Origin: Rhodothermales bacterium
GTDB lineage: Bacteria > Bacteroidota > Rhodothermia > Rhodothermales > UBA10348
Length of the DNA: 64,000 nt
NCBI GenBank assembly: GCA_028284865.1
Contig: JANQQV010000020.1
Span: forward strand, 368,760-432,759
Direction of reading: 5' to 3'
This document shows, in pieces, positions 14,207 to 36,356 of this stretch (position 1 is its first letter; the number at the start of each line of letters is the position of its first letter). The position numbers and the translations under genes are program-made. The notes beneath the pieces are model-generated. The model was not told where the DNA came from. It made no database searches and saw only the letters and a list, made by a program, of their open reading frames with translations.

Positions 14207-14244
14207 AACGAGCGGGGCGCAGCTGATGCTGCGCCCCGCTCGTT
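14207..14244. terminator. Rho-independent terminator
   Basis: AACGAGCGGGGCGCAGC-TGAT-GCTGCGCCCCGCTCGTT(TT) between convergent genes. Confidence 0.8.
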
Positions 14245-14263
14245 TTAGCTACCTCATTTACGA

Positions 14264-14821: not shown

Positions 14822-14960
14822 GAACAAACATCCGCCCTGATTGGGGCATTGGTTATACGGTTCCACTCACTAAGCCGCTAACGTCGCTTCAGCGGTAACC
14901 CCCCACGGGAGAATTCATCCAGGAGCGTTGTCCGGGGACGAATCGAGCCACTAGGTCCGA

Positions 14961-15344: not shown

Positions 15345-15443
15345 GGAAGTGACGGGATGGTGATGATTGACGGGTTCATGCAACGAGCTTGGGTGTCCCT
15401 TCTCGGAAATCTGTTGCAGAAGTTGAAAAGGTCGCAAAGAGGG

Positions 15444-15474
15444 TTGTCCTCTGCAAAACAACGTCCTATCTTTG
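15444..15474 (+). promoter_or_regulatory. Putative Bacteroidota-type promoter (-7 TAnnTTTG) of tRNA-Asn
   Basis: TATCTTTG at 15467-15474, 28 bp before the tRNA, with TTG at 15444-15446. Confidence 0.45.
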
Positions 15475-15502
15475 CGCCCGCTTCCGCTACTACGAAGCAC
15501 AC

Positions 15503-15577
15503 TCCTCGGTAGCTCAGCGGTAGAGCATGCGGCTGTTAACCGCAGGGTCGTAGGTTCGAATCCTACCCGGGGAGCCA
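15503..15577 (+). tRNA. tRNA-Asn (anticodon GTT)
   Basis: TCCTCGGTAGCTCAGCGGTAGAGCATGCGGCTGTTAACCGCAGGGTCGTAGGTTCGAATCCTACCCGGGGAGCCA; canonical cloverleaf with encoded CCA. Confidence 0.97.
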
Positions 15578-15618
15578 AGAAAGGCAGACCAGCATTCGCT
15601 GGTCTGCCTTTCTTTTTT
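15578..15618 (+). terminator. Rho-independent terminator of tRNA-Asn
   Basis: AGAAAGGCAGACCAGC-ATTC-GCTGGTCTGCCTTTCT followed by a T-tract. Confidence 0.9.
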
Positions 15619-15758
15619 ACAGGTAGGGAGATCGGCATTCGCCGGTCTCCTTTTTTGTTTAATGGAAGGGTCGAGAGCTGTACCCGAGCGAAGGATATCC
15701 CCTCCGCCCCCTATCTTCCAGAATCACAAACCCTTCGGTTCCTACCCAAAACTCCGGA

Positions 15759-18059: not shown

Positions 18060-18106
18060 TCAGGTGAACTGACGCGGGTGATACGCTCGTCACGCGAATC
18101 CTCAGA

Positions 18107-19897: not shown

Positions 19898-19963
19898 GGT
19901 ATGGTGTGCTGGGTGGTCGGGTACGGATTCTCGACGGCCAAAAGTCGGCCAACGGCCATGGGG

Positions 19964-19992
19964 TGTATAGCGTTGCGTTGCAAGGCACGCAA
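19964..19992 (-). promoter_or_regulatory. Putative sigma70-type promoter for fhs
   Basis: Minus strand TTGCGT-N17-TATACA about 65 bp upstream of the fhs ATG. Confidence 0.45.
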
Positions 19993-20104
19993 GCTTACGT
20001 CTTTTCCACGTCGAAGACTGTAGGGAATCCAACCACAGTATCCGGAAGTCGCCAACACAGGTCAGGATTCCCTTCTAGCGGAAGCTGCTGCAGACCGGAC
20101 TTGC

Positions 20105-21775
20105 CTACTGGAGCGCCGCGATTTCTTCCATCAGGCGCTCGTTGATGGTGATCGACGCTCCTTCCCGTAGCTCCGCGACCAGCTCGTACTCCGCCACAAA
20201 CGGCCGGAGACGGCGAGCGATATCTGCTTGATCGCGCTCCCAGTCGGGGGTGATCTGCTGCCGGTCAAGAATGCGGATAGCGGCCCAATCGTCGCGCCGA
20301 CCCACAAACACGGTCGAATCGACGGGCACCGTCGCTACATAGGGGGACCACTCAGGAATCGTCTCCAATCGCACATCGCGCATCTGGATGGGCCAATCGA
20401 CTCCCGATTCGACGGCCGCCTGCAGTGCTTCGGGCGAAACGGCGGTCACCGCGTCAAAGGACAACGATGCCATTCGGCGATTGGCCCAGCCCAGTCGATC
20501 AAAGGCGAGTCGGATGAGAGACGTGTCCACCTCGACCTCTTCAGTTCGAAGAGCCTCCCTCAACTGACGCGCCTTTTCCAATCGGACGCGCCGATCCACC
20601 TCAATCTCCCACTCTTCATCCCGCAGACGCTCTTCCTCTCCGGCTCTCGCAAGAGCTTCATTCCGTAGTGCACGACCCACAGAGGCTGCTGTTCGCTCCC
20701 TGGCTTCCCGCTGAGGGAGTGACTCGAACCAGAAGGCATAGTCACCGGCGGTGAAGGCTTGCATCTCCCCTTCCCACTCATAGGTCAGGAGCGGCGTGGA
20801 AGGATCGACGTCCCGTTTCCATGAGTCGTCAATCCGTGAGACAACCATCCCTCCCAGATCCTCAGGAGTCGGGTCAATCGCATTGATGAGGTCATTCAAT
20901 GCTCCGATGGCAGGCGCGTTGACGGTGACGTCCAACTGGGACATGAACGACTGCACGAACCGGTCACCTTCGAGTCTGCGCCGACGTTGACGGTACTGAC
21001 TGGATAGCCCGCTCCTCCGGGTGAGGTATGCTGATTCTGTCAGAAGCGGTTCCTGGATGATGTTCTCCAGGAAAATGATGTGATAGCCATAGCGCGTCCG
21101 TACAGGAGCAGACCATGTACCCGGCTCCATGCTGAAGGCCATCTCGGCAAAGGCATCGTCGACCGAATAGTACCCGACAGGGCCCAGGTATCCAGCCATG
21201 GAGTCCACGTCCGCCAGCCCGTACACATCACGCGCTTCTTCCAGAAAAGGCACACCAGACTGAAGCCGTGCATAGGAGGCCTGAGCTTGCTGAAGGGATG
21301 TGAAATAAAGGTGCCGGACAACCCGTTTCGACTGGTCCTTGATATACGCCTGGCGAAGCTGGACGTCCGTCGGAGCCGTCATCGTGTCCAGGAGCGCCGT
21401 TTCAAAAAAGCGGGATCCCAGCTCTTCTTTCTCAATCCGAAGCAGCGTCTCGCGGAATGCTTCCGTAGTGTCCCGTCTCTCGACTGAAAACTGCTGGGCC
21501 AACAGAATGGCATCGATCAGCTGCTCCAGATGAGCGGCCCGGGCCACGGCCGTGTCATTCGAGCCCGATCGAACCAGAAAGTCGATGTACGTCTGCTCGA
21601 ACCAGGAAACACTGATTCCAAAATCATCGACCGTAGCCACAATCCTGGGATCGCGATCCGGACCCGGTCCGGCATCGCCTGATCCACAACCGGCGATGAA
21701 CAGCAAAAGCGCCAGGCACCAAATAGGTGCCTGGCGCGAGATGATGCCGTTATGGGGGGCGCGTTTCGTGCTCAC
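20105..21775 (-). CDS. Parvulin-type peptidyl-prolyl isomerase / SurA-PrsA-like lipoprotein
   Basis: Lipobox FIAGC; IVATVDD; rotamase domain VRHLYF...GYLG...FAEMAFSMEPGTWSAPVRTRYGYHIIFL. GTG start lies 1 bp after the PorV-like stop. Confidence 0.82.
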   Translation of the reverse strand: MSTKRAPHNGIISRQAPIWCLALLLFIAGCGSGDAGPGPDRDPRIVATVDDFGISVSWFEQTYIDFLVRSGSNDTAVARAAHLEQLIDAILLAQQFSVERRDTTEAFRETLLRIEKEELGSRFFETALLDTMTAPTDVQLRQAYIKDQSKRVVRHLYFTSLQQAQASYARLQSGVPFLEEARDVYGLADVDSMAGYLGPVGYYSVDDAFAEMAFSMEPGTWSAPVRTRYGYHIIFLENIIQEPLLTESAYLTRRSGLSSQYRQRRRRLEGDRFVQSFMSQLDVTVNAPAIGALNDLINAIDPTPEDLGGMVVSRIDDSWKRDVDPSTPLLTYEWEGEMQAFTAGDYAFWFESLPQREARERTAASVGRALRNEALARAGEEERLRDEEWEIEVDRRVRLEKARQLREALRTEEVEVDTSLIRLAFDRLGWANRRMASLSFDAVTAVSPEALQAAVESGVDWPIQMRDVRLETIPEWSPYVATVPVDSTVFVGRRDDWAAIRILDRQQITPDWERDQADIARRLRPFVAEYELVAELREGASITINERLMEEIAALQ

Positions 21776-21776
21776 A

Positions 21777-22829
21777 TCAGAAGTAAATGCGGAAGTCCAT
21801 GGTCTGCGAGGAGTCCAGAAGATCGAACGGGACGTATGCGTAGTCAAATCCGAAGCGCACACCGGAGAGCTGCAGATCGAGGCCCGCACCATAGGACAGG
21901 TGCGAATCGACATTGTCGATGAACGCGTCCTTGTACCCCGCACGGGCGTTGAACGTCAGCATCCGGGTCATGTACTTGAACTGAGCGCCGAAGTCACCAT
22001 TGAGGTTGTTGTCGTTCGTCTGGTTGGCATCAGCCAGAATGACCAGCTCGGTAGCGTCGGTCTTGATGACCGGGAGCGAAATCCCAAACTTGAACGACAT
22101 GGGCAGATCCCACGCATCCATCTTGATGCGCGCGGGGATGCTTTCTGACGACCCGTCATGCTGCGGATCGAGATCGACCTGGATCTCAGAGTTGATGCCG
22201 CGCATCGTCATCTTCCCGCCGAAGTTCATGATGGAGGCAGCCACCTTGAGACCATTGAAGTAATCCGTCAGCAAGACGAATCCGACATCAATGGCCATCG
22301 TGCGTGCCCGCATGTCCCGAATGGACTGGCGAACAAGCTTCGTGGTACCACCAAAGTAGAAGTTCGGCGTCAGCGGCATGGCGTAGGTCAGACCCACGCT
22401 GAGGTCGGCCGCGCTGAAGGTCTCTCCCGTTCCCTCCGGGCGAGCGATCGTGCGGACCTTCATGGAGCCGTAATCGACCGAGGCGATGCTCAGACCAACT
22501 ACACCGGATCCACCGGCCGGAATGGTCAATCCAGCTGTGTTGTAGGTGATGCCGGCAATCCACTCGTTGTTGGAGAACATCAGGCCACTGCGCTGGCCAG
22601 AGCGATGCGCAATGGCAGCTCCTCCCGGATTCCAGAACAGGGCGTCTGCGCCCGTTGCCGTGGCTGTGTACGCGTGACCGAGCGAAAGACCCGGTGCTCC
22701 AGCTCCAAGCGTCAGGAACGTCGCAGCCGTCGTGCCGACACGACTCTGATCGTCACTCTGCCCCGAGTCCTGGGCATATGTCGATCCAACGAGGGCAAAC
22801 AGGATCAGTAAAGAGATTGTACGTCGCAT
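21777..22829 (-). CDS. PorV/PorQ-family outer-membrane beta-barrel (T9SS shuttle-like)
   Basis: Signal peptide; GTTAATFLTLGAGAPGLSLGHAYTA...ALFWNPGG (PorV/FadL-like N-terminal motif); amphipathic strands ending FDYAY...FRIYF; GGAGG RBS. Confidence 0.85.
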   Translation of the reverse strand: MRRTISLLILFALVGSTYAQDSGQSDDQSRVGTTAATFLTLGAGAPGLSLGHAYTATATGADALFWNPGGAAIAHRSGQRSGLMFSNNEWIAGITYNTAGLTIPAGGSGVVGLSIASVDYGSMKVRTIARPEGTGETFSAADLSVGLTYAMPLTPNFYFGGTTKLVRQSIRDMRARTMAIDVGFVLLTDYFNGLKVAASIMNFGGKMTMRGINSEIQVDLDPQHDGSSESIPARIKMDAWDLPMSFKFGISLPVIKTDATELVILADANQTNDNNLNGDFGAQFKYMTRMLTFNARAGYKDAFIDNVDSHLSYGAGLDLQLSGVRFGFDYAYVPFDLLDSSQTMDFRIYF

Positions 22830-22840
22830 GATGAGCCTCC

Positions 22841-25800
22841 CTATTTGACGACGGCAAATTTGCCGACGTGCTCGCCGATACCGGGAGCCTTGACGTGATA
22901 GATGTACACCCCGAATGCAATGTCCTGTCCTCCGCGGGTCTGAAGATCCCAGAACACAGAACCATTGTCTTCGGCCGAATTATGCTCGATCTCATCCACC
23001 AGTTCACCCCGCAGGTTGAAAATCGAGATGGTTGCCTGCTGAGGCAGGTTGATGAACTGCAAACGACGTTCGCCGCGACCGGATATCTGGCTACGCTGCT
23101 CAAAGCCGGAACCACCCACATAGGGGTTTGGCACAACGCCGATATCATCGAGCTCTTCCTCCGCCAACTGCACGTCCACAAAGGGCTCACGCAGCGTGAA
23201 CTGGAAGTAGTCGCCCGTGTGGAATTCCTTTTTTGGCGTGATGCGCAGGACAGTCCCGGGCCCAGGGGCTGTGGGAGTAGCACCATCCGGAGTTGAGAAG
23301 GACACACGATGCCTGAACTTGCGTTGGAATCCTTCACGATCCACAACGATCAAGTCGTCCTCGACGTCGAATTCGCGGTTGTTGTTGAGATCCTGGATCA
23401 GCAGCTCGACCACCTGATTGGTGGTGGCATTCAAGGCGAAGACCGGTACTGTTCCGTTGAGGAACCCGATTCCGAAACGCGGCAAGCGATACGTCGAATC
23501 CGCCGGGTTCACCCAGTGGACCTCGTAATCGTAAGTCGTTGGAACGTGCAGGCTGGTTGAATCAGGGCGAACATTGGCAATCCAGTTCGTCGAGACACCG
23601 TCCAGCGTTGTGGGGTCAAGGTTCACAAGCTCTGAAGCGGTGCCTGCGCTTCCCACGTAGCCCGTCTGCTCTTCGACAAACTCCAGGGCACCGGCCTGAA
23701 CTTCGTAGTTCTCCACTTCGACGATGAAGCCATCCACCATCGGGGGCTCATCGATCAACGCGTTGTTGCGAACGCGAATCTCGTTGGTTGCCATGTCCAC
23801 GATGTCGAATGTCGTCGTCACCTGGATATCCGCATTCGGATTGTCGCTGTCCTCACTCTTGAAGACGACGCGGTACGGATTGTTGGCCTTGATGTCGGCT
23901 CCTGAAATGATCCGGACTCCCATGCTTCCCGCTCCGACCCCTTCAGTGATCTGGGACAGATCCTCATTGACGGTTCCATCGACGAAACCGGCAGGTTTGC
24001 TTCGAGGAACGACGATAGCCGCATTTTGGGAGACACCGAGGACGTTCCCAGCCAGGTCCACGGAGATGTTGAAGATGTTCTCCTGTGGGTCAATTACCGG
24101 CTGACCGTCCTCCTGGATACCCCGATCGTACGCGACGAGTGCGTAGTAATACGTCATCCCGTTGCTCACGTCATCATCGACGAAGAAGAATGAAAGACCG
24201 GAGTTGTCGCCAAGGTCGTAGACGGCCTCATTTTCCAGGACCGTCACCGGACCTGAGATGTCATTGACCAGATCCCACTGCCCGATCGGCTCCATGAACG
24301 TCGGCGTACCGTCGACATTGGTGATCGTGCGGGCATCGGTCAGCAGTGGGTTCGTTCCCTTGTAGAGGCGGTAGCCCTCGAAGTCGAACTCCTGGCTGAA
24401 CCGGTCGAAGCTGGCCACGGAAGTCGTATCCCACGTGAGGACCACACGACCATCACCCGGAATGGCCGTCAACGTCGGCAGGAATGGAGCCTGAGCAAAG
24501 TTGTAGTCCGCGTCGTAGATGCTCTGGACCGTGCGGCGATTCTTGAAAAAGTCCTGCTCATCCTCACCAAAGACCCAGGCCGTCGAGAAGAAGTCCGTAC
24601 GCCCCGCAAACAGGTTGACAGGTCCCGAAACGAAGAGCAGGAAGGGCTCGATGTCCGCCTCAAAGGCATCTGCAGGCGTTCCGAGTGGGAACTGGGCGAA
24701 GTTCAGGATGCGGTCGAACATCCACGTGTCCTCGCGCAGGTTGTCCCCATTCTCGTAGAATGGACGCGATGAAAGGTCGAACCCAGTCAGACCGATCATG
24801 TCGGATTCTGCCACGTCGAGCTCATCGAAGTTGGGCTCTCCCGGATCGGGCATGCCGTTGGCTTCTCCTTCATCCGGACCCGGATAGTTCAGGTCGAACG
24901 GCCCTTTCCCATCAAGTCCAACGTCGTTGTTCACGGATTCCCCTGCATCCAGGATGCCGTTACCGTTGACATCGTCAAACGCCAACCAATCGAGGTTCTC
25001 ATCACCTGTCCACCACCGGCCGGCCTTGTAGGCTCGGGTTTCGGTCAGCGGGCCGTTGACAGCCTCAAAATTGATCAGGTCGTAATTGTTGGATACGTAC
25101 AGCTGGATGGCATCCTGACCTGCAATCAGCTGGCCCGGTCCACCGAACCGCTGCTCATCGATGATGCCGTCCTCATCGTTGTCCAGACCGTCTTCAGCAC
25201 GCGTCGGGCTCTCAAGGAACGCAAAACCCGTGTATCCCAGGTCATACAGCGTTCCATCCTGACGCTGACCGATTCCGTCCTGGTCCCAGCCATACGTGAC
25301 ATCCTCCTGGGCGTTGAATGCAGCGGTCTCATCACCTTCCTCGTTCCCCAGACCATAGTCCATGATCTGGGTGAAGAACATTCCTTCTGTACCGTCCAGG
25401 TTATAGCGATAGTCCGTCTCTGACGTGTTCGACATCCGATAGAGGATGAACATGACATCCTCAGCAAGGATGTTTGCCCACTGGAAAATGCGGACCTGAG
25501 TCTGCAGTCCCATTCCGCCGATGGTTGAATCCGATGGCGACGGATAGAACACGCCATACTGGGAGTTCGGCTGGCCCGTGACTCGGGAGACGTGATACTC
25601 CCGGTCAGAGTAGTCATCCATTACATAGAAGCTCTCCAGGTCGGCATTGAATACACCACGGCCGAAGAATCCATTCCACTGACCACCCCAGCCCGGATCA
25701 TCGGGGTTGTCGAGGCGATCTGGCCAGATTCCGGGCCAGGAATCCGGATCGTCAGAAAGGGCCGGTACTGGCTCAAGAAGACCAAGCGCGTTGATTCGAC

Positions 25801-26272
25801 GCGTGTTGTGGAAGCCGTCAAGAGGCAACCATCCCCAAAGCTCGCCGCCTGGTCCAAGACGCTTTCCAGCCTCTCGATACGTCAGGATGACCGGGTTGAC
25901 GAGGCTGTCGGGAGCACCATTGTAGAATGGCCACTTTTCACGCTCGGCCCGTACACGTCCAGCGGCCATGATGCCGACACCGTCAATGTGACGACCACCG
26001 ATTCCGCGAGGCCACACTCCCCAAGGGAGGTCATTCCAGCGCGAGAGTTCTCCGTGATTGCGGAAGTTGGTCTCGATCAGGTTACCGTCGAGAATACCGC
26101 GAGCGATCATCTCTTCGCTTCCGCGATATTCGGGAGGAATCTGCGTCTGGGCAGCTGCATCCATCGCGATGATTGACATCACGAGCACGCCCGCCAGCAG
26201 CAGGGAAAGAACGGAGTGGTGAGAAGCATGTCCCACCTGATTGCGCATCGTGCGTTTCATGAAGTTTGACAT
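22841..26272 (-). CDS. Large (1143 aa) secreted protein with Ca-binding Dx[DN]xDG repeats, FN3-like domain and atypical T9SS-like C-terminal domain
   Basis: Signal peptide (AAA-Q); DGLDNDEDGIIDE, DDVNGNGILD and DLNNNREFD; PTLTAIPGDGRVVLTWD...FEGYRLYK...YYYALVAYD (FN3-like); C-terminus VVPNPY...LQFINLP...ISIFNLRGELV...WDL...GVYIYHV...GKFAVVK. Confidence 0.75.
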   Translation of the reverse strand: MSNFMKRTMRNQVGHASHHSVLSLLLAGVLVMSIIAMDAAAQTQIPPEYRGSEEMIARGILDGNLIETNFRNHGELSRWNDLPWGVWPRGIGGRHIDGVGIMAAGRVRAEREKWPFYNGAPDSLVNPVILTYREAGKRLGPGGELWGWLPLDGFHNTRRINALGLLEPVPALSDDPDSWPGIWPDRLDNPDDPGWGGQWNGFFGRGVFNADLESFYVMDDYSDREYHVSRVTGQPNSQYGVFYPSPSDSTIGGMGLQTQVRIFQWANILAEDVMFILYRMSNTSETDYRYNLDGTEGMFFTQIMDYGLGNEEGDETAAFNAQEDVTYGWDQDGIGQRQDGTLYDLGYTGFAFLESPTRAEDGLDNDEDGIIDEQRFGGPGQLIAGQDAIQLYVSNNYDLINFEAVNGPLTETRAYKAGRWWTGDENLDWLAFDDVNGNGILDAGESVNNDVGLDGKGPFDLNYPGPDEGEANGMPDPGEPNFDELDVAESDMIGLTGFDLSSRPFYENGDNLREDTWMFDRILNFAQFPLGTPADAFEADIEPFLLFVSGPVNLFAGRTDFFSTAWVFGEDEQDFFKNRRTVQSIYDADYNFAQAPFLPTLTAIPGDGRVVLTWDTTSVASFDRFSQEFDFEGYRLYKGTNPLLTDARTITNVDGTPTFMEPIGQWDLVNDISGPVTVLENEAVYDLGDNSGLSFFFVDDDVSNGMTYYYALVAYDRGIQEDGQPVIDPQENIFNISVDLAGNVLGVSQNAAIVVPRSKPAGFVDGTVNEDLSQITEGVGAGSMGVRIISGADIKANNPYRVVFKSEDSDNPNADIQVTTTFDIVDMATNEIRVRNNALIDEPPMVDGFIVEVENYEVQAGALEFVEEQTGYVGSAGTASELVNLDPTTLDGVSTNWIANVRPDSTSLHVPTTYDYEVHWVNPADSTYRLPRFGIGFLNGTVPVFALNATTNQVVELLIQDLNNNREFDVEDDLIVVDREGFQRKFRHRVSFSTPDGATPTAPGPGTVLRITPKKEFHTGDYFQFTLREPFVDVQLAEEELDDIGVVPNPYVGGSGFEQRSQISGRGERRLQFINLPQQATISIFNLRGELVDEIEHNSAEDNGSVFWDLQTRGGQDIAFGVYIYHVKAPGIGEHVGKFAVVK

Positions 26273-26274
26273 GC

Positions 26275-29031: not shown

Positions 29032-29070
29032 GGGATCCGGGGATTCCAGTTGAAAAGAACCGTCAACGAC

Positions 29071-29100
29071 GCGGGGCCTGCCTGAGAAGGCTGGCCCCGC
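29071..29100 (-). other. Intergenic GC-rich stem-loop (mRNA stabiliser or partial terminator)
   Basis: GCGGGGCC-AGCCT-TCTC-AGGCA-GGCCCCGC on the minus strand, with no U-tract, between the CBM protein and the receptor. Confidence 0.6.
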
Positions 29101-29127
29101 GTACACTCGACGGAATGTGCGATGTGC

Positions 29128-31368
29128 TTACTTCAGCAGCATCATGGTCCGCGTCTGGGTGAATTCACCTCCAGCCTGCAGACGATAGATGTACATACCG
29201 GAGGTCAGCTGCGACGCGTCAAACGTGACAGCGTGCGTGCCGGCCGGCATGGTACGTCCGTTGACCAGCGTGGCAACACGCTGTCCAAGCACATTGTAAA
29301 CGTCCAGGCGAACGTCCGAGGCGTTCGGGATGGAGAATTCAATGTTCGTGCTCGGGTTGAACGGGTTCGGGTAGTTCTGCTCAAGGGCGAACTCATATGG
29401 AAGAGCCGAATTGGCCTCTTCGATATCCGTAGCCGTCACAGCCGTACCAGCGATCGCGACAGGCTGCCAGGTCGACGGGTTGTTCCAAGCGCCCGGGCCG
29501 CCAAAGAGCGTCCAGTTGACCTGGGCTTCACGTCCACCACCAGCGTCCCGATCTCCCAGGGCGAGGTTGAATGGAATGACCTTGAGAGCGTCGCTTGCTG
29601 GGACAGCAAGTGGCTGGTCAGTCGTCGGATCCAATACGGATTCCAGCGGAATGGCGACGAGGAAACGATAGCCAGTGGCCGTTTTCTCAGCAGCTCCACC
29701 AGCACCCTGAACAGGACCGGATGCCGTCGAGCCCGTGGCACCAGCCGGATCAGCGTGAGACCAGATTCCGATACCCAGAACGTTGCCCGCTTCGTCAGCT
29801 TCCACCGCCATGCGGATCTGGAAGTCAGCGGTGTTTCCGCGGCCATACTGGCCATTCGGAGAGCGATTCAGCAAACCGCCACCGGGGACTTCGCGAACAT
29901 CGTAGTTACCGAAGAAGATTTCGAACGAGTCGAAATTCCAGGTGCCTGCGCCGTCGGCGTTGGCGCCAGGGAAACCAGCAACGTCATCTGTGACTTCTGC
30001 ATAGACATACAGGAATCCGAATTCGTCGATGGCCACTTTGGCCATGGCCGAGATATCGGCGGCCGCACCGTCACCAGTCGGTGCTGGAGCATCACCCGAT
30101 GTCCAGTGATCAGGGGTGATCATGAACGGCGCGTTGCCCGGGAATCCATCGTCGGAAATCGTGCCAGAGGCGACGTTATCGAAGATGGTCGTCGACTGCG
30201 CTTCCGTCAACACGCGAATGAACGGTGCTTCCGGGAGGTTCGGGTTGGCCACTTCACCTGAAGAACCGCCCACAAACGTGTTTTCAACGCCGAAGAGGCT
30301 CTTGGAGGTCACCGCGTAGTAGAACGGATCACCCGCCAGGGAAACGTGTGGCAGCTCAACCTGGTGGTCGATGGAAAACTCTGTGTCGTTGAACGATTTC
30401 GAGCCAATCAATGAGACGCTTCCAGCCAGAATATCCTGCGATGTAATCGGGCTCTCGGAGGCGTAAACGTTGTATCCACCAAAATCAGGATTTGGCGTCC
30501 AGCTGATCGTGTTGACATCGCCGTTGGCAGCAAATGACGCGCCACTCATGGCAATAGGGCCCTGTGTGGCCACCGACACGTCGGTGTTTGGACCACCGAT
30601 GTAAACGTCGTCGAGGTAGATCGGGCCGCCACCGGTGTTGTTGTCAAAGAAGACCGTCAGGCTGTAGACACCGTCCCACTGGAATTCTTCGAAACAGGCG
30701 TCACCGTTGCACTCGCCTGGGCCCCAAACGCCGAATCCACCAACGGACCAGGCACCGCCGTATGTCCACTGGGCTGCGTTGTCATCCAGCGGAGTCGCGA
30801 GGGCATTACCGTTGATGTCCTTGCCGACTTTGGCAGAGTCGAGTCCAGCGACAGTCGTCGGCGGCAGCGGAATGGCCAGATCGTGCCACTGTCCGTTGCG
30901 CATGGCTTCTGGAATGGTCCAATTGAGACGGGACTGGAGATCAGCCGTGCCATCGTTGGCCGGGCTGTCATCCGTTTTGTCGAACATGGTGATCCAGACA
31001 CCTGGCTGACCCGCATTGGCAGGGTCAACGAGAAGCTTCATGTAGAGCGTGTCTCCTTCCCCAGCACTCATGCCCACGTTCTGGGACATGTCAATGCCTT
31101 CCGACTTCGAGAACCGGTAGCCGTTCTCCGACCAGTTACCGTAGTCGTACTTGTGGACACGGTTGCCAGAAGTCGGATCCAGGGGATCAAGGACGATGGG
31201 AGCCGAGGCTTCAGGAATGAGGACGTTAGGTCCGTCGAAGAAGAAAATGAAATCGTCGCCGAGCTCAGTCATGCCGCTCTGGGCTGATGCCGGGACCGCA
31301 ATCATAGCGGTCAGGAGAAGCATCATGAACGGCAGCACAGCGACGCGCGTGGTAGCACTCGTGTTCAT
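29128..31368 (-). CDS. T9SS type A-sorted protein with CBM9-like sugar-binding domain(s)
   Basis: Signal peptide; FLYVYAEVTDD...DSFEIFF...GYRFLVAIPL...FNLALGDRD...AWNNPSTW (CBM9-like); canonical CTD FALEQNYPNPFNPST...YNVLGQRVATL...SGMYIYRL...MMLLK. Confidence 0.8.
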   Translation of the reverse strand: MNTSATTRVAVLPFMMLLLTAMIAVPASAQSGMTELGDDFIFFFDGPNVLIPEASAPIVLDPLDPTSGNRVHKYDYGNWSENGYRFSKSEGIDMSQNVGMSAGEGDTLYMKLLVDPANAGQPGVWITMFDKTDDSPANDGTADLQSRLNWTIPEAMRNGQWHDLAIPLPPTTVAGLDSAKVGKDINGNALATPLDDNAAQWTYGGAWSVGGFGVWGPGECNGDACFEEFQWDGVYSLTVFFDNNTGGGPIYLDDVYIGGPNTDVSVATQGPIAMSGASFAANGDVNTISWTPNPDFGGYNVYASESPITSQDILAGSVSLIGSKSFNDTEFSIDHQVELPHVSLAGDPFYYAVTSKSLFGVENTFVGGSSGEVANPNLPEAPFIRVLTEAQSTTIFDNVASGTISDDGFPGNAPFMITPDHWTSGDAPAPTGDGAAADISAMAKVAIDEFGFLYVYAEVTDDVAGFPGANADGAGTWNFDSFEIFFGNYDVREVPGGGLLNRSPNGQYGRGNTADFQIRMAVEADEAGNVLGIGIWSHADPAGATGSTASGPVQGAGGAAEKTATGYRFLVAIPLESVLDPTTDQPLAVPASDALKVIPFNLALGDRDAGGGREAQVNWTLFGGPGAWNNPSTWQPVAIAGTAVTATDIEEANSALPYEFALEQNYPNPFNPSTNIEFSIPNASDVRLDVYNVLGQRVATLVNGRTMPAGTHAVTFDASQLTSGMYIYRLQAGGEFTQTRTMMLLK

Positions 31369-31428
31369 TGCATTGCTTGATGGTTAGTTGTGGAGTACGG
31401 GTCCGGCAGGGGTTCAACCGGCCCCTCC

Positions 31429-31442
31429 TGAAAACCTTTTCA
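31429..31442. promoter_or_regulatory. LacI-family operator (copy 1)
   Basis: Near-palindrome TGAAAACCTTTTCA about 60 bp upstream of the CBM protein start. Confidence 0.75.
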
Positions 31443-31471
31443 CGATGAAGGTATTAACGCCCTCTCATAAA

Positions 31472-31485
31472 TGAAAACGTTTTCA
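31472..31485. promoter_or_regulatory. LacI-family operator (copy 2)
   Basis: Perfect palindrome TGAAAACGTTTTCA with central CG typical of LacI/GalR/CcpA sites, 43 bp from copy 1. Confidence 0.8.
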
Positions 31486-31519
31486 GGCCATTTTCAGTTT
31501 TCAGATCGTCAGATTTTCG

Positions 31520-33397: not shown

Positions 33398-33466
33398 TCC
33401 TACCCTCCTGGGGCGCTTCTACAGTGAATGGTGTTCTGTCAGTCCCGATCGATCATCTGGCGACAC

Positions 33467-34465
33467 TCAGGAGGACGCACGGATGCGAAGCTCCACCGGC
33501 AGTTCGCTGGCATAGCTTTGCAGAACGTCGTCGCTTTCATTGGCGATGACCGCTTCAAGAAGCTTGACCGATCGCCGTCCCAGCTCCCGAATCGGAACGT
33601 GAACAGTGGTTAACGGCGGGAACGTGAATGCCGAACTGGGAATGTTGTCAAACCCGGTCAGCGATACATCTTCTGGAATCCTCAGCCCGGCGTCGCGAAT
33701 CGCACTCAAAGCGCCGACAGCCGCATCATCATTCGATGTCATGATGGCCGAAGGCGGCTCAGGCAAACCCAATAGGTATTTGGTGCCATCGTACCCGGCC
33801 TGCTGGGTGAACTCACCCTCGAAAATCAAGTCCTCATTGACAGGAATGCCTGAGACACGCAGTGCTTCCAGGAACCCTCTGAACCGTTCCTGAGCGTCAT
33901 AAGCATCGCGCGGACCCGTTATGAATCCGATTTTGGAATGTCCCGAAGCGATCAGATGTTCAGCCATCTGTCGCATTCCGCCAAAATTGTCGAATGAAAT
34001 GGTCGGCACTCTCTTACCCTCGGACCGGGTGTTGAGGAATACCAATGGGATCCCGCTGGGCGCGCGGTCCAGTACGGATTCCACGGTGAGCACGGGAGCC
34101 ATGACCAGAATGCCGTCCACTCTACGGTACATTCCTTTCAAAGCAGCTTCCAATTCGTCAGACGAGTTGTGCGAGGACGAAATCAAAAGCATCCGGCCGT
34201 CCTCTTGAGCTGCGCTGTCTATGCCATTCAGCAATTCGGCATAGAAGTCTCCGGATACATAGGGCAGTAGAATACCGATGGCCCCTGTTTGCCTGGAGTG
34301 CAAACTCTGTGCAGCCGGGTTGGGCGTGTACCCCAGCTCTGCCGCCGCCTCCAGCACACGTTCACGTTTGTCCGCGCGAACGTTGCAGGTGTCGTTGAGT
34401 ACACGGGAAACCGTCGAAATCGATACCTTTGCTCGCTCTGCTACGTCCCGTATCGTTGCTCCCAT
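33467..34465 (-). CDS. LacI-family transcriptional regulator
   Basis: TIRDVAERAKVSISTVSRVLN HTH, YTPNPAAQSL hinge and IPEDVSLTGFDN...PPLTTV. Confidence 0.96.
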   Translation of the reverse strand: MGATIRDVAERAKVSISTVSRVLNDTCNVRADKRERVLEAAAELGYTPNPAAQSLHSRQTGAIGILLPYVSGDFYAELLNGIDSAAQEDGRMLLISSSHNSSDELEAALKGMYRRVDGILVMAPVLTVESVLDRAPSGIPLVFLNTRSEGKRVPTISFDNFGGMRQMAEHLIASGHSKIGFITGPRDAYDAQERFRGFLEALRVSGIPVNEDLIFEGEFTQQAGYDGTKYLLGLPEPPSAIMTSNDDAAVGALSAIRDAGLRIPEDVSLTGFDNIPSSAFTFPPLTTVHVPIRELGRRSVKLLEAVIANESDDVLQSYASELPVELRIRASS

Positions 34466-34504
34466 CGTACCTCGTCATTGAGGCGGTTTCGCAACCGCAT
34501 CATG

Positions 34505-34528
34505 CATTCTGAAAACCTTTTCAGAATG
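34505..34528. promoter_or_regulatory. LacI-family operator (copy 3) in the lacI / SGNH divergent intergenic region
   Basis: Extended palindrome CATTCTGAAAA-CC-TTTTCAGAATG, overlapping a plus-strand TTCTGA-N17-TACACT promoter candidate (34507-34535). Confidence 0.8.
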
Positions 34529-34556
34529 ATACACTCTTGGCATTTTGAACGCAAGC

Positions 34557-36356
34557 ATGCCCAAATCGTCCAAAGAACGGGTTTTCACCGTTCTGCTTGT
34601 TCTCATCCCCGTCTTTCTGCTTCTTGCTCTGGAGATGGGTCTTCGGCTGTCCGGTTTCGCCGAATCGCGACGTAGTGCGCTCAAGCCGATCGATGGTGAA
34701 CCGGGATGGGTCGGGCTCAACCCAGAATATCCGGGCCGGTATTTCAGAGGCTTTCTTCCGGCAGTGGCTTTCACTCCATTTCGCGAAGTCAAGCCGGACA
34801 ACAGTGTTCGCGTGGTAGTCCTCGGTGGGTCTTCGACTGCCGGATTCCCTTATCAATGGTACCAAGGCTTCCCTTCGGGCTTGGAACGACGATTGACGGA
34901 CCAGTATGCAGGCCGCCCGGTCGAGGTCATCAATCTGGGGATGACGGCTGTCAACAGTTACACACTCTGGGACCTGGGGCGTCATGTTATCGACATGGAC
35001 CCCGACCTGGTCGTCATCTACGCTGGCCACAACGAATTCTATGGCGCATACGGTGCGGGCACCACGGCAGCGTGGTATCCGAAGTCCGCGTGGTTTGGAC
35101 GCATGTTGCTGACGCTGAAACGGTCGGCCATCGTCATGGGTATCGAGCGCATCCTCTTCGGGCCGCCTGACTATGGCCTGGACGCAGATCCGAACGAGCG
35201 CACTTTGATGGCCCGCGTGGTGCAGGACGCGGGAATCGTACTCGATGAGGATGTCTATTCCGCGGGAATCGCCCAGTTCGAATCCAACATGGAGCGGGTC
35301 CTGTCTTCCTATCAGGAAAACGGCATTCCGGTTGTGGTCGGCACTCTCGTCGCCAACCTCTCCGAACAGCATCCGCTCTCGCAGACAGTCGACGCTGTAG
35401 AGGCATTCGAAGCAGGCCGCCAGGCTCTTCAGGATGGGGACGTGGAAGAGGCACGAATTCGATTCATCGAGGCGCGGGACCTGGATCAGATACGATTTCG
35501 AGCCTCAACCGATATCAACGACATCATTCGGTCCTGGTCTGGTCGAGACGGCGTTTCGGTTGTAGACCTTGAGCCTGCATTTGAGGAGGCATCCACAACA
35601 GGAATCCCTGGATACGATTTGTTCACGGATCACCTCCACCCCACCGCGCGCGGATATGATTTGATTGCGGAGGAGCTTACTCCATCGGCGGTTGCGGCTC
35701 TCGAACAACGAGGGATTCGCCCCCGACCGCTGAATCTGGAATGGGACTCGACCATTCTGTTGGACGGCCTGTCGGAATCGGAGGCGGGGATTCTGATCGA
35801 CCGCCTCCTGTCAGACTATCCGTTCAATCTGGACGACGAACCGGGGGCGGCCACATCCAGATACCAGGAACTGATGGACGCTCGGCGTCAGTCCGGCAGC
35901 ATCTCAGATTCCCTTGCCATCAGTGTGATGACAACGGATATGCCCACACAAAACGCCCTTCTGGAGGGTGCGCGTCTGTACGAGTCCTCAGGCGACTCCC
36001 TGCAAGCCCTGCAATACTACCATTCGCTCTTCTATTGGCAGCCCTTCAATGCCACCTTGATGGAAGAGGTCATCGGGAGATACCTGACGGCTCCTACATG
36101 GGATGCCGTAACGGAAAAGCTGGCTTTGTACGGCGCCGCCCGATCAGATCAGCTGTACTTCTGGAACGCACTCGCGGTAACGCAGATACGCCAGGAGCGT
36201 TGGGAGTCAGCAGCCGTCGCCCTTCAACAGGCTGAGCGTCTTGATGACCGGTCGCCGGTCATGCTATACAACCGTGCTCGCCTGGAATTGGCCCAGGGCG
36301 ATACGCTCGCCGCACGCTCCACGTTGGAAGCTTACCGCTCTGCCACGCAGAACTAA
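34557..36356 (+). CDS. Membrane-anchored SGNH/GDSL hydrolase-fold protein with TPR repeats
   Basis: N-terminal TM helix; block I LGGSSTAG, block II VINLG, block III YAGHNE, block V DHLHP; TPR-like helices internally and at the C-terminus. Confidence 0.8.
   Translation: MPKSSKERVFTVLLVLIPVFLLLALEMGLRLSGFAESRRSALKPIDGEPGWVGLNPEYPGRYFRGFLPAVAFTPFREVKPDNSVRVVVLGGSSTAGFPYQWYQGFPSGLERRLTDQYAGRPVEVINLGMTAVNSYTLWDLGRHVIDMDPDLVVIYAGHNEFYGAYGAGTTAAWYPKSAWFGRMLLTLKRSAIVMGIERILFGPPDYGLDADPNERTLMARVVQDAGIVLDEDVYSAGIAQFESNMERVLSSYQENGIPVVVGTLVANLSEQHPLSQTVDAVEAFEAGRQALQDGDVEEARIRFIEARDLDQIRFRASTDINDIIRSWSGRDGVSVVDLEPAFEEASTTGIPGYDLFTDHLHPTARGYDLIAEELTPSAVAALEQRGIRPRPLNLEWDSTILLDGLSESEAGILIDRLLSDYPFNLDDEPGAATSRYQELMDARRQSGSISDSLAISVMTTDMPTQNALLEGARLYESSGDSLQALQYYHSLFYWQPFNATLMEEVIGRYLTAPTWDAVTEKLALYGAARSDQLYFWNALAVTQIRQERWESAAVALQQAERLDDRSPVMLYNRARLELAQGDTLAARSTLEAYRSATQN

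What the first reader, a model, noticed from the sequence alone, without database searches (positions are those of the whole stretch)
20105..36356. SusD-less beta-glucan utilisation locus built from a TonB receptor, a giant T9SS-like cargo, a dedicated PorV-like barrel and a PPIase
Seen: the minus-strand string lacI > GH16-CBM6-CTD > CBM9-like-CTD > TonB receptor > 1143-aa protein > PorV-family > parvulin lipoprotein. Gaps between the last four genes are only 2, 11 and 1 bp. A divergent SGNH/TPR gene and three shared operators complete the locus. No SusD-like lipoprotein is encoded next to the receptor. Established: canonical Bacteroidota PULs pair SusC with a SusD lid, and PorV shuttles CTD-bearing T9SS cargo. 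Inference: this is an alternative glycan-uptake architecture in which the large secreted protein, held by its own PorV paralogue, takes the surface lid or substrate-capture role. The GH16 (EIDIME) points to laminarin/beta-1,3-glucan as substrate. This is the best candidate in the window for an undescribed system.
Basis: partly seen in the sequence, partly recalled or inferred. Interest (0 to 1): 0.82.

Follow-up and report, generated by a model that had tools for sequence, protein, structure and literature searches.

The report
SusD-free glycan uptake trio
This laminarin-type sugar-harvesting gene cluster lacks the usual SusD partner; its outer-membrane transporter always sits beside an unnamed large secreted protein and a dedicated PorV-like barrel, a trio repeated in this genome and conserved in relatives of the Bacteroidetes.

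Summary
Gene order, the 2/11/1-bp gaps, three LacI operators (TGAAAACSTTTTCA) and the lack of SusD are all in the sequence. The genome (97.7% complete, Rhodothermales by homologue names) has no SusD hit at all.

The conserved unit is a trio, not a quartet: TonB-dependent transporter (TBDT), the 1143-aa protein ("BIG") and a PorV/PorQ-family barrel.
- It was complete in 60 of 60 related loci with enough flank, and in 10 of 10 more divergent loci.
- It spans Rhodothermales, Balneolales, Ignavibacteria, Calditrichaceae and Neomarinimicrobiota.
- It occurs 3 times in this genome beside different CAZymes (GH16; GH13/CBM20; GHL10).
- The PPIase is accessory (44 of 61 loci).

BIG has no Pfam family. 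Its N-terminal domain models confidently (pLDDT 93) as a galactose-mutarotase-like supersandwich. Its C-terminal domain resembles the retained CTDs of PorZ and PorU and is predicted to dock on the PorV-like barrel (0.91; best control 0.00).

The same operator precedes an MFS transporter and a GH149 beta-1,3-oligoglucan phosphorylase homologue, which supports laminarin as substrate.

A lid or capture role for BIG is inferred, not shown. Nine literature searches found no description of the trio. I rate it a new variant of a known kind, of high interest.

The parts
34510..34523 (.). LacI-type operator O1 (TGAAAACCTTTTCA) in the divergent lacI / SGNH-TPR intergenic region
   Evidence: 3 sites in the window against 0.08 expected
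34545..36356 (+). Divergent SGNH/GDSL hydrolase with C-terminal TPR and an N-terminal membrane helix; probably in the regulon (it shares operator O1)
   Evidence: PF13472 58.5 bits; TPR_16; N-terminus; homologue within 8 kb in 11 of 35 PPIase-bearing loci with a full upstream flank
33467..34465 (-). LacI-family repressor
   Evidence: PF00356 67.2 bits, Peripla_BP_3 121.6 bits
31520..33397 (-). Secreted GH16 endo-beta-glucanase with Big_7, CBM6 and a type-A T9SS CTD
   Evidence: EIDIME at residue 147
31429..31485 (.). Two LacI-type operators (31429-31442 and 31472-31485) upstream of the CBM9-like gene, ahead of the transporter operon
29128..31368 (-). CBM9-like surface protein with a type-A T9SS CTD; the most constant neighbour upstream of the trio
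   Evidence: homologue upstream in 29 of 35 PPIase-bearing loci with a full flank; CBM9_1 in 12 of 55 flanking proteins
26275..29106 (-). TonB-dependent transporter (CarboxypepD_reg extension, plug, barrel); not SusC family; likely start at 29031
   Evidence: full-length paralogues only in the other trios of the genome (35-37% identity)
22841..26272 (-). BIG: 1143-aa secreted protein. Signal peptide; galactose-mutarotase-like supersandwich with acidic DxDxDG inserts (residues 42-600); FN3-like domain (about 601-760); variable beta-sandwich region (761-1030); PorZ/PorU-like CTD (about 1045-1143)
21777..22829 (-). Dedicated PorV/PorQ-family outer-membrane barrel, predicted to hold the CTD of BIG
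   Evidence: NF033709 142.6 bits, cut-off 90; 0.91 against 0.00; distinct from the housekeeping PorV beside PorU on contig C19
21709..21737 (-). Terminator-like hairpin with a T run, 40 nt after the PorV-like stop and inside the PPIase signal-peptide coding part
   Evidence: a hairpin plus T run recurs at the same place with other sequences in L024, L025, L029, L051 and L053
20105..21775 (-). Parvulin-type PPIase lipoprotein; an accessory gene of the orthologous subgroup
   Evidence: present in 44 of 61 loci with at least 2.9 kb downstream; only one copy in the genome

Best explanation
The locus is a LacI-repressed beta-1,3-glucan (laminarin-type) utilisation system.

**Outer-membrane core.** It is a conserved three-gene module that stands where Bacteroidia have SusC/SusD.
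- A non-SusC TonB-dependent transporter.
- A roughly 1100-aa protein of an unnamed family (BIG).
- A dedicated PorV/PorQ-family barrel.

**Proposed working.**
1. BIG crosses the inner membrane by Sec and the outer membrane by the type IX secretion system.
2. Its atypical C-terminal domain is not cut off. It stays bound to the co-encoded PorV-like barrel, as the PorZ CTD stays on PorQ and the PorU CTD on PorV. BIG is therefore a stably anchored surface protein.
3. Its N-terminal supersandwich and conserved FN3 domain work with the neighbouring transporter as the extracellular glycan-binding or capping partner. The variable middle region may carry specificity.
4. The CTD-bearing GH16 and the CBM9-like protein cut and hold the polymer at the surface.
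5. Oligosaccharides pass the TBDT. An MFS transporter and a GH149 phosphorylase of the same regulon, encoded elsewhere, take them on.

**Shown here by computation:** gene content, operators, synteny, paralogy, folds and the predicted CTD-barrel docking.
**Inferred:** surface retention, contact between BIG and the TBDT, glycan binding by BIG, and co-induction.
For: **1. Conserved unit**
- A TBDT lies directly upstream of BIG in 67 of 67 loci with at least 2.7 kb of flank.
- A PorV-like gene lies adjacent in 69 of 69 loci with at least 1.1 kb of flank.
- The full trio is present in 60 of 60 loci with both flanks, and in 10 of 10 further, more divergent loci.
- Record titles name Rhodothermales, Balneolales, Ignavibacteria/Melioribacteraceae, Calditrichaceae and Candidatus Neomarinimicrobiota.

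**2. PUL-like modularity**
- This genome has three full trios: the window; contig C22 (LacI > GH13-CTD > trio > CBM20-CTD > MFS > GH13); and C23:316-336k (GHL10-CTD, FG-GAP-CTD, trio, Amidase_2-CTD).
- Five other genomes hold about 4 to 8 BIG genes each.
- Of 55 immediate same-strand neighbours in 33 loci, 40 carry Por_Secre_tail, 12 CBM9, 9 GH16, 9 malectin and 4 CBM_4_9, plus single GH9, GH5 and GHL10 hits.
- An Ignavibacteria locus reads SSF, CBM9-CTD, trio, GH16-malectin-CTD, GH3.

**3. No SusD**
- None in the locus or the genome.
- In 301 genomes sampled from the phylum, BIG was found in 130 and SusD in 166: both 77, BIG only 53, SusD only 89, neither 82.
- Families f15, f21, f24 and f25 have SusD in 44 of 45 genomes and BIG in 0 of 45. 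Families f18 and f30 have BIG in 12 of 12 and SusD in 0 of 12.

**4. Anchoring of BIG**
- Its C-terminus misses the generic CTD models (no Pfam hit). It hits the tails of PorZ (E 1.3e-5) and PorU (E 4.5e-3).
- By fold it matches the PorZ CTD (Z 12.1, rmsd 2.6, 92 aligned, 26% identity) and the PorU CTD (Z 10.1, 90 aligned).
- The complex model of the PorV-like barrel with BIG residues 1030-1143 scores 0.91, with a best control of 0.00. That mark was reached by 58 of 80 solved complexes and 2 of 110 mismatched pairs. The runs agree in at least 85% of contacts, and the partner's pLDDT is at least 80.
- A review states that PorU and PorZ keep their CTDs bound to PorV and PorQ (PMC10202324, passages read).
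- The genome has SprA, PorU and a separate housekeeping PorV.

**5. Sugar-related fold**
- Residues 42-600 model at pLDDT 93.1 and pTM 0.92.
- They match the non-catalytic N-terminal supersandwich of GH15, GH94, GH65, GH116 and GH149 enzymes and of galactose mutarotases. The best match is 9ju0, Z 19.4, rmsd 3.5, 265 aligned.

**6. Substrate**
- GH16 carries EIDIME.
- A perfect operator at C23:3149 stands ahead of an MFS_2 transporter (201 bits). The next gene matches the GH149 beta-1,3-oligosaccharide phosphorylase 6hq6 (E = 0, 1029 bits, residues 28-1151).

**7. Conservation pattern**
- The N-domain, FN3 and CTD are conserved across diverse members (mean top-residue frequency 0.45, 0.54 and 0.60).
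- Residues 761-1030 are variable (0.31; 13 of 270 columns at 0.8 or more).
Against: - No experiment and no expression data. No RNA run holds the stretch.
- Contact between BIG and the TBDT was not tested, because the pair exceeds the predictor's size limit.
- PorV-substrate complexes have been solved (entries listed with 6h3i). The docking score may therefore reflect family likeness, although the PorV-like protein matches PorV only at E 0.006.
- The supersandwich fold shows no function. It is catalytic in aldose epimerases, and the GH174 fucanase match covers most of that chain (Z 14.3).
- The high conservation of the N-domain across loci for different glycans argues against it being the specificity-determining binding site.
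- If BIG is tethered by its C-terminus, three sandwich domains separate the N-domain from the membrane. That suits a reaching capture arm as well as a lid.
- 77 of the 301 sampled genomes have both BIG and SusD, so the two systems are not exclusive.
- The 80 loci are the best 80 of 558 matches and are therefore biased towards close relatives. The 10 divergent loci were picked by me.
- The PorV-like tree leaves the backbone unresolved. The trio-linked barrels fall in two supported clades, not demonstrably one.
Confidence: 0.6

Rival explanations
1. BIG is a surface enzyme of an undescribed family (glycanase, lyase or epimerase-like), with the supersandwich as catalytic domain. It is not a binding or capping partner of the transporter. 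The PorV-like barrel merely anchors it.
For: The fold is catalytic in galactose mutarotases (3mwx, Z 14.0). The GH174 endo-1,3-fucanase match covers chain residues 73-374 of a 449-residue chain (Z 14.3). Many invariant acidic residues lie in the N-domain, including D211, E213, D220, D272, E354 and D364/D366/D368.
Against: No sequence match to any Pfam or NCBIfam catalytic family or to any solved chain (profile search). The best fold matches are the non-catalytic N-terminal domains of multi-domain enzymes, whose catalytic (alpha/alpha)6 part BIG lacks. The N-domain is conserved in loci aimed at beta-glucan, starch and other glycans, which is unusual for a substrate-specific active site. The DxDxDG runs look like calcium sites; that reading is recalled, not tested.
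Confidence: 0.15
2. The PorV-like barrel is a local shuttle or anchor for all CTD cargo of the locus (GH16, CBM9-like protein and BIG). BIG is one more surface glycan-binding protein with no physical coupling to the TBDT. The gene order reflects co-regulation only.
For: PorV is known as a shuttle for CTD cargo (PMC10202324). 40 of 55 flanking proteins carry a CTD. A TBDT and a PorV-like gene lie side by side without BIG between them at C18:94926-98836.
Against: BIG's CTD is a distinct subtype shared by proteins that sit next to PorV-like genes. The 767-aa protein of the alginate locus shares only this CTD, at 44% identity. The flanking CAZymes carry the generic PF18962 tail that BIG lacks. The strict adjacency of TBDT, BIG and PorV-like genes across at least three phylum-level lineages, with gaps of a few bases, and the co-duplication of all three genes (full-length TBDT paralogues occur only in trios) point to a functional unit.
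Confidence: 0.2
3. The trio does not import nutrients. The CarboxypepD_reg-type TBDT would instead work in export or surface assembly, as reported for Oar of Myxococcus (recalled, not checked here). Alternatively, BIG is an adhesin or surface-layer component.
For: The TBDT has the CarboxypepD_reg-plus-barrel architecture. It has no close solved relative apart from the N-terminal extension.
Against: The trio is consistently embedded in CAZyme, CBM, sugar-transporter and LacI contexts. In the window, two of the three operators stand ahead of the operon that ends with the trio, and the same motif precedes a sugar transporter and phosphorylase. BIG already carries its own T9SS signal.
Confidence: 0.05

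Closest known systems
SusC/SusD-type polysaccharide utilisation loci of Bacteroidia
   Same: A regulator, surface endo-glycanase, carbohydrate-binding surface proteins and a TonB-dependent transporter with an N-terminal CarboxypepD_reg-type extension are clustered. There are several paralogous loci per genome, each with its own CAZymes.
   Different: There is no SusD anywhere in the genome. The TBDT fails the SusC/RagA model (70.4 bits against 368.25). The partner is not a lipoprotein but a Sec/T9SS-type protein with a CTD, encoded with its own PorV/PorQ-family barrel. The surface enzymes are T9SS cargo rather than lipoproteins.
Alternate (non-SusD) lids of non-SusC TBDTs in Bacteroides (Price, Deutschbauer and Arkin, bioRxiv 10.1101/2023.03.17.533168; abstract and Discussion read)
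   Same: A non-SusC TBDT has a conserved adjacent gene for an extracellular partner unrelated to SusD.
   Different: Those partners are lipoproteins (DUF4625, DUF4876, DUF4374, BtuG, a pectin-lyase-like protein) that the authors link to small substrates. Here the partner is a roughly 1100-aa CTD protein with a dedicated barrel, in loci for polysaccharides.
PorZ-PorQ and PorU-PorV pairs of the T9SS attachment complex; type-B CTD proteins with a cognate PorP/SprF barrel (review PMC10202324, passages read)
   Same: A CTD-bearing surface protein is encoded with, or bound to, a cognate PorV-like barrel, and the CTD is retained as the anchor. BIG's CTD is nearest to the PorZ and PorU tails. The barrel belongs to the PorV/PorQ family.
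   Different: The barrel fails the PorV and PorQ equivalog cut-offs (36.7 against 250; 70.6 against 220). It is additional to the housekeeping PorU-PorV pair on contig C19. The pair is coupled to a TBDT and to CAZymes, not to the secretion machinery or to gliding.
CUT loci (carbohydrate utilisation with TonB-dependent receptors) of Xanthomonas and aquatic Proteobacteria (PMC1790865; only the search listing and the start of the abstract seen; the locus definition is recalled)
   Same: SusD-less TBDT-based sugar scavenging with a regulator, degradative enzymes and an inner-membrane transporter.
   Different: As far as I recall, CUT loci have no T9SS, no CTD proteins and no dedicated extracellular partner or PorV-like barrel.

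Membership tests
SusD/RagB (PF07980, PF14322) | A SusD-family lipoprotein encoded next to the transporter | tested here: not met
   No hit among the locus proteins. No six-frame hit in the 97.72%-complete genome, while the control genome Bacteroides thetaiotaomicron rings.
SusC/RagA TonB-linked outer membrane protein (TIGR04056) | Score over the curated cut-off along the whole model | tested here: not met
   70.4 bits against a cut-off of 368.25. Only model positions 2-121 of 981 are matched, i.e. the N-terminal extension. The only solved relative is an 85-residue SusC N-terminal domain.
TonB-dependent receptor (generic) | Plug domain plus C-terminal beta-barrel | tested here: met
   PF07715 28.3 bits (cut-off 23.9); PF14905 40.1 bits (cut-off 27); the protein ends in ...LGLQYSF.
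PorV/PorQ family (NF033709) | Score over the subfamily cut-off | tested here: met
   142.6 bits against a cut-off of 90, residues 33-341.
T9SS PorV proper (NF033710) or PorQ proper (NF033711) | Score over the equivalog cut-off | tested here: not met
   PorV 36.7 against 250; PorQ 70.6 against 220. The housekeeping PorV is at C19:11493-12542, right after PorU.
T9SS type-A C-terminal sorting domain (PF18962 / TIGR04183), for BIG | A sequence match to the CTD model | tested here: not met
   No hit at E up to 0.01. Only the PorZ tail (E 1.3e-5) and the PorU tail (E 4.5e-3) match.
T9SS CTD fold (as in PorZ and PorU) | A C-terminal beta-sandwich superposable on solved CTDs | tested here: met
   5m11_A: Z 12.1, rmsd 2.6, 92 aligned, 26% identity. 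6za2_B: Z 10.1, 90 aligned, 22% identity.
Glycoside hydrolase family 16 | GH16 domain with the catalytic E-x-D-x-x-E motif | tested here: met
   PF00722 82.4 bits; EIDIME at residue 147.
LacI-family repressor with palindromic operator | HTH_LacI plus a periplasmic-binding-like domain; cognate palindromes in promoter regions | tested here: met
   There are 3 sites in the window against 0.08 expected. Binding itself was not tested.
Galactose mutarotase-like / GH-type carbohydrate-binding supersandwich (fold level only) | A large beta-supersandwich superposable on the N-terminal domains of GH15, GH94 and GH65 enzymes | tested here: met
   Z 19.4 (9ju0), 19.2 (8rf9), 18.4 (4zle, 6ggy), 18.1 (1lf6). 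240-275 of 559 residues aligned, with a model pLDDT of 93. There is no sequence-level family, so sugar binding is inferred.
Canonical Bacteroidota PUL (defined by a SusC/SusD pair) | A tandem susC-susD pair | tested here: not met
   See the first two rows. By that definition the locus is not a PUL, although it works like one.

The most novel reading that the evidence does not exclude
The TBDT-BIG-PorV-like trio is a second, T9SS-assembled solution to outer-membrane glycan import. It is the main PUL core of the FCB lineages outside Bacteroidia (Rhodothermia, Ignavibacteria, Calditrichota, Marinimicrobia). In it, a secreted protein anchored by its retained CTD on a private PorQ-like barrel caps or feeds the transporter, as the SusD lipoprotein does in Bacteroidia. 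This would tie type IX secretion directly to the assembly of nutrient transporters. It would also explain how SusD-poor lineages take up polysaccharides.
Probability: 0.35. Interest if true: 0.9.

Novelty: new variant of a known kind. Interest (0 to 1): 0.8.

Why it matters
**Detection of glycan loci.** Glycan foraging by Bacteroidota is usually detected through SusC/SusD pairs, so lineages with few or no SusD genes look poor in PULs. One paper reports susCD "scarcely detected" in CAZyme clusters of Ignavibacteriales and none in Kapabacteria (PMC10576277, passage read).

**Size of the family.** BIG is large and wholly unannotated.
- A profile search of 1.84 billion cluster representatives gave 1253 at E up to 1e-30 and 4677 at E up to 1e-10.
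- None of the 120 listed homologues has a Pfam domain. Those that carry a name are called "hypothetical protein".

**What a marker would give.** The family marks transporter loci for laminarin, starch, cellulose-type and other glycans in marine and sediment lineages. It would provide:
- a new marker for PUL-like loci in metagenomes;
- a new role for PorV/PorQ paralogues and retained CTDs;
- a testable alternative to the SusD lid.

Tried and rejected
1. **Rhodothermus marinus xylan locus (lead rejected).** The published table lists Rmar_1067-1073 as LacI, two CTD enzymes, TBDT, CTD hypothetical, hypothetical (PMC6987092). I took it at first for the same trio. In a same-order genome (handle G008), a locus with that gene order, those sizes and two GH10 hits has no BIG hit and no PorV-like hit at E up to 0.01. 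Its TBDT matches the window's only over residues 42-322.
2. **Whole-protein fold of BIG.** The model was mediocre (pLDDT 69, pTM 0.42). Its Foldseek hits were generic strings of Ig/FN3 domains with TM below 0.1. The N-domain had to be folded alone with a deeper alignment.
3. **Foldseek on the N-domain.** It gave only weak matches (TM 0.2-0.3). VIA-align made the supersandwich clear.
4. **ESM Atlas.** The nearest clusters are uncharacterised, with no common Pfam family.
5. **Sequence searches of solved structures.** BIG profile: none. TBDT: only an 85-residue SusC N-terminal domain. PorV-like protein: PorV at E 0.0061.
6. **Expression.** No RNA holder is listed. The only holder is a DNA run that may be the source of the assembly.
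7. **Operator pattern.** My first pattern was one base too long and found nothing.
8. **PorV-family tree.** The trio-linked barrels form two supported clades (100 and 96 SH-aLRT). Their union is unresolved against the long branches of the other paralogues, so a single origin is neither shown nor excluded.
10. **Supplementary files.** Fig. S5 of PMC10576277 (CAZyme cluster layouts of Ignavibacteriales) and the supplements of PMC6987092 may show related layouts that I could not see.
11. **Literature.** Searches found no paper describing a TBDT with a CTD protein and a PorV-like barrel. A 2026 review of bacterial glycoside transporters has no occurrence of PorV, T9SS, type IX, Rhodotherm or Ignavibacter (PMC13543919). 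Subscription journals are not covered.

Full report
**1. What is in the window**

- a LacI-family repressor;
- a GH16-Big_7-CBM6 enzyme with a type-A T9SS C-terminal domain (CTD);
- a CBM9-like CTD protein;
- a TonB-dependent transporter (TBDT) with a CarboxypepD_reg extension, plug and barrel;
- a 1143-aa ORF with no Pfam hit, called BIG here;
- a PorV/PorQ-family barrel (NF033709, 142.6 bits, cut-off 90);
- a parvulin-type PPIase.

Read from the GTG at 21775, the PPIase has a lipoprotein-like signal peptide. An SGNH/TPR gene diverges from lacI. The gaps of 2, 11 and 1 bp are as stated.

Three copies of the palindrome TGAAAACSTTTTCA lie at 31429, 31472 and 34510. Shuffles predict 0.08. The GH16 has the motif EIDIME at residue 147.

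No protein of the locus hits SusD. The TBDT scores 70.4 bits on the SusC/RagA model, whose cut-off is 368.25, and only over the N-terminal extension.

- The TBDT probably starts at 29031.
- A strong terminator-like hairpin lies 40 nt after the PorV-like stop, inside the PPIase signal-peptide coding part.

**2. The organism and its machinery**

Named homologues of BIG come from Rhodothermales. The window's genome has 3.48 Mb in 28 contigs and is 97.72% complete.
- It has no six-frame match to PF07980 or PF14322.
- It has a type IX secretion system: SprA (1932 bits), PorU (965 bits), and directly after PorU a housekeeping PorV (340 bits).
- Nine PorV-family genes pass the family cut-off. Four of them lie next to TBDTs.

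**3. The conserved unit is a trio**

*In this genome.* Full-length relatives of the window's TBDT (35-37% identity), of BIG (31-33%) and of the PorV-like barrel (34-35%) occur together at two further places.
- Contig C22 reads LacI > GH13-CTD > TBDT > BIG > PorV-like > CBM20-CTD > MFS > GH13, a starch-type locus.
- C23:316-336k reads GHL10-CTD, FG-GAP-CTD, TBDT, BIG, PorV-like, Amidase_2-CTD.
- The other roughly twenty TBDTs of the genome match only at the N-terminus.
- The PPIase has no second copy.

*In other genomes.* A scan of one genome per prokaryotic species found 558 stretches encoding a relative, and the best 80 were kept.
- Of those 80, a TBDT lies directly upstream in 67 of the 67 with at least 2.7 kb of flank.
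- A PorV-like gene is adjacent in 69 of the 69 with at least 1.1 kb of flank.
- The trio is complete in 60 of the 60 with both flanks.
- The PPIase is present in 44 of the 61 with at least 2.9 kb downstream.
- In two loci (L061, L079) the order is TBDT, PorV-like, BIG, PPIase.

These 80 loci are biased towards close relatives. I therefore fetched ten more divergent hits from the phylum sample, and all ten have the trio.

Record titles name Rhodothermales, Balneolales, Ignavibacteria/Melioribacteraceae, Calditrichaceae and Candidatus Neomarinimicrobiota. Two records labelled Chitinophagales (L048, L064) carry 53-54% identical orthologues with the PPIase. I did not check their taxonomy.

**4. 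Context says glycan use**

I examined 55 immediate same-strand neighbours from 33 loci. These were 23 of the 80 loci plus the ten divergent ones, taking neighbours of at least 200 aa within 700 bp. Pfam hits among them:
- Por_Secre_tail, 40;
- CBM9, 12;
- GH16, 9;
- malectin, 9;
- CBM_4_9, 4;
- sugar-type solute-binding proteins, 3;
- LacI, 2;
- CBM20, 2;
- single hits to GH9, GH5 and GHL10.

Other examples:
- An Ignavibacteria locus reads SSF transporter, CBM9-CTD, trio, GH16-malectin-CTD, GH3.
- A Calditrichaceae locus has CBM9-CTD, the trio and GH9-CTD.
- Five genomes searched in full hold about 4 to 8 BIG genes each.

This multiplicity and the changing CAZyme company are the hallmarks of PULs.

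**5. BIG and SusD across the phylum**

In 301 genomes drawn evenly from the phylum, BIG was found in 130 at E up to 1e-20 and SusD in 166. Only two BIG candidates were scored per genome, so copy numbers are lower bounds. The split is both 77, BIG only 53, SusD only 89 and neither 82.

By (unnamed) family:

| Family | BIG | SusD |
|---|---|---|
| f15 | 0/16 | 15/16 |
| f21 | 0/22 | 22/22 |
| f24 | 0/4 | 4/4 |
| f25 | 0/3 | 3/3 |
| f18 | 5/5 | 0/5 |
| f30 | 7/7 | 0/7 |
| f20 | 7/7 | 1/7 |
| f26 | 16/16 | 5/16 |
| f12 | 35/49 | 48/49 |
| f1 (own family) | 2/2 | 0/2 |

The two systems are partly complementary and co-exist in the window's class. Related genomes are not independent, so I attach no statistic.

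**6. What BIG is**

*Sequence searches.* BIG has a signal peptide without a lipobox.
- The search returned 1520 homologues at E up to 0.001. None of the 120 listed has a Pfam domain. Those that carry a name are called "hypothetical protein", and one also "FlgD Ig-like domain-containing protein".
- A profile search of 1.84 billion cluster representatives gave 8963, 4677 and 1253 hits at E up to 1e-3, 1e-10 and 1e-30. The weaker hits may be CTD-only.

*Folds.* The whole-protein model is mediocre (pLDDT 69). Its C-terminal half is confident: an FN3-like domain, beta-sandwiches and a CTD.

Residues 42-600, folded with an 83-sequence alignment, give pLDDT 93.1 and pTM 0.92.
- This domain matches the N-terminal, non-catalytic supersandwich of GH15, GH94, GH65, GH116, GH149 and GH161 enzymes and of galactose mutarotases.
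- The best matches are 9ju0 (Z 19.4, rmsd 3.5, 265 aligned), 8rf9 (19.2), 4zle and 6ggy (18.4) and 1lf6 (18.1).
- About half of the domain aligns. The rest is inserts that include invariant acidic runs such as D364/D366/D368-G369. I take these to be calcium sites, which is recalled and not tested.
- BIG has no catalytic (alpha/alpha)6 domain.

*Conservation.* Across 47 diverse members the N-domain, FN3 and CTD are conserved (mean top-residue frequency 0.45, 0.54 and 0.60). Residues 761-1030 are variable (0.31).

**7. How BIG is held**

- BIG's C-terminus misses the generic CTD models. It matches the tails of PorZ and PorU.
- By fold it matches the PorZ CTD (Z 12.1, rmsd 2.6, 92 aligned, 26% identity) and the PorU CTD (Z 10.1, 90 aligned).
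- According to a T9SS review, these are the two CTD proteins whose CTDs are not removed and stay bound to PorQ and PorV. The review also suggests that cognate PorV-like barrels protect CTDs from cleavage (PMC10202324, passages read).
- A complex model of the PorV-like barrel with BIG residues 1030-1143 scored 0.91, with a best control of 0.00. That mark was reached by 58 of 80 solved complexes and 2 of 110 mismatched pairs. The runs agree in at least 85% of contacts, and the partner's pLDDT is at least 80.
- PorV complexes have been solved, so part of this may be family likeness. The barrel matches PorV only at E 0.006 by sequence.
- In G008, an alginate-type locus reads PfkB kinase, TBDT, a 767-aa CTD protein, PorV-like barrel, FadL-like protein, PL6-type lyase and PL17-type lyase. 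The 767-aa protein shares only this CTD with BIG, at 44% identity over 96 columns.
- The CTD subtype and the PorV-like barrel therefore travel together even when the rest of the protein differs.

**8. Substrate and regulon**

With at most one mismatch, the palindrome occurs six times in the genome. Three are in the locus. A perfect copy at C23:3149 precedes two genes:
- an MFS_2 sugar transporter (201 bits);
- an 1158-aa protein matching the solved GH149 beta-1,3-oligosaccharide phosphorylase 6hq6 (E = 0, 1029 bits, residues 28-1151).

Together with GH16, this supports laminarin-type beta-1,3-glucan as the substrate. The pathway would run through surface cleavage, TBDT, MFS transporter and cytoplasmic phosphorolysis.

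**9. Best explanation and its limits**

The locus works like a PUL in which the SusC/SusD pair is replaced by a non-SusC TBDT, BIG and a private PorV/PorQ-like anchor.
- I put about 0.85 on the trio being a glycan-uptake module.
- I put about 0.7 on BIG being anchored through a retained CTD.
- I put about 0.5 on BIG acting directly with the TBDT as binder or cap.
- Overall I give 0.6.

The lid idea is open. The strong conservation of the N-domain in loci for different glycans fits a constant docking surface. A C-terminal tether with three spacer domains fits a reaching capture arm equally well.

The PPIase is an accessory of one orthologous subgroup. A hairpin followed by a T run lies between the PorV-like gene and the body of the PPIase gene. 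It recurs at that place with unrelated sequences in L024, L025, L029, L051 and L053. This suggests attenuation at that point.

**10. Comparison with the literature**

- The nearest known systems are SusCD PULs; the alternate lipoprotein lids of non-SusC TBDTs in Bacteroides (abstract and Discussion read); the PorZ-PorQ and PorU-PorV pairs; and CUT loci (listing only).
- Nine searches found no description of the trio.
- A 2026 review of glycoside transporters does not mention PorV or T9SS.
- A paddy-soil study notes that susCD is scarce in CAZyme clusters of Ignavibacteriales.
- An early lead, that the R. marinus xylan locus has the same trio, was tested and rejected.
No RNA run was found.

**11. 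Verdict**

This is a real and widely conserved feature. It is a new variant of TBDT-centred glycan utilisation, built with T9SS parts. It is computationally well supported as a module, and the molecular role of BIG remains to be tested.

Noticed in passing
G000 contig C23:2962-8186 (outside the window, about 366 kb upstream of its first base): The same LacI operator, as a perfect palindrome (at C23:3149), precedes an MFS_2 sugar transporter and an 1158-aa homologue of the GH149 beta-1,3-oligosaccharide phosphorylase 6hq6. This is a distant second operon of the same regulon.
   Followed up: yes
window 21709-21737 (minus strand); L024, L025, L029, L051 and L053 at the same relative place: A terminator-like hairpin plus T run lies just after the PorV-like stop. 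In the window and in L053 it sits inside the coding part of the PPIase signal peptide (elsewhere not checked). The structure recurs with unrelated sequences in other lineages, so it may be an attenuator. No formal covariation test was made.
   Followed up: partly
L119 (G008:C1:1338000-1357999), about 10594-18246: An alginate-type locus (PfkB kinase, PL6-, PL17- and heparinase-like lyases) has a variant module: TBDT, a 767-aa protein sharing only the BIG-type CTD (44% identity), a PorV-like barrel and a FadL-like barrel.
   Followed up: partly
G000 C18:94926-98836 with contig C28: A TBDT and a PorV-like gene lie directly adjacent with no BIG between them. Contig C28 ends in the same peptide that opens the last ORF of C18, so the two contigs abut. 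C28 carries a 703-aa BIG-like CTD protein a few genes upstream.
   Followed up: partly
G000 C18:284-7152 and C15:220-3744 (both at contig ends): Two proteins of about 1100-1170 aa share only the BIG-type CTD (40-42% identity). They carry a further short tail after it, ending ...KKR(I/V)QLN(T/N)F. One follows an 1137-aa TBDT. The contig ends hide what comes next.
   Followed up: no
L121 (G008:C1:1220000-1239999): A xylan-type locus has two GH10 genes and a TBDT followed by CTD-bearing proteins. Its layout is like the published Rhodothermus marinus table, but it has no BIG or PorV-like homologue. Similar-looking strings can hide different partners.
   Followed up: yes
window 18107-20032 and 15759-18059: Directly downstream of the locus lie a formate-tetrahydrofolate ligase (854 bits) and, on the other strand, a 766-aa amino-acid-permease/SLC12-like transporter. 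Neither appears related to the locus.
   Followed up: no
L106, L119 and other G+C-rich loci: Long spurious antisense ORFs (for example 1119 aa and 1152 aa) overlie the real TBDT genes and mislead a longest-ORF gene call. Homology, not length, had to decide.
   Followed up: yes
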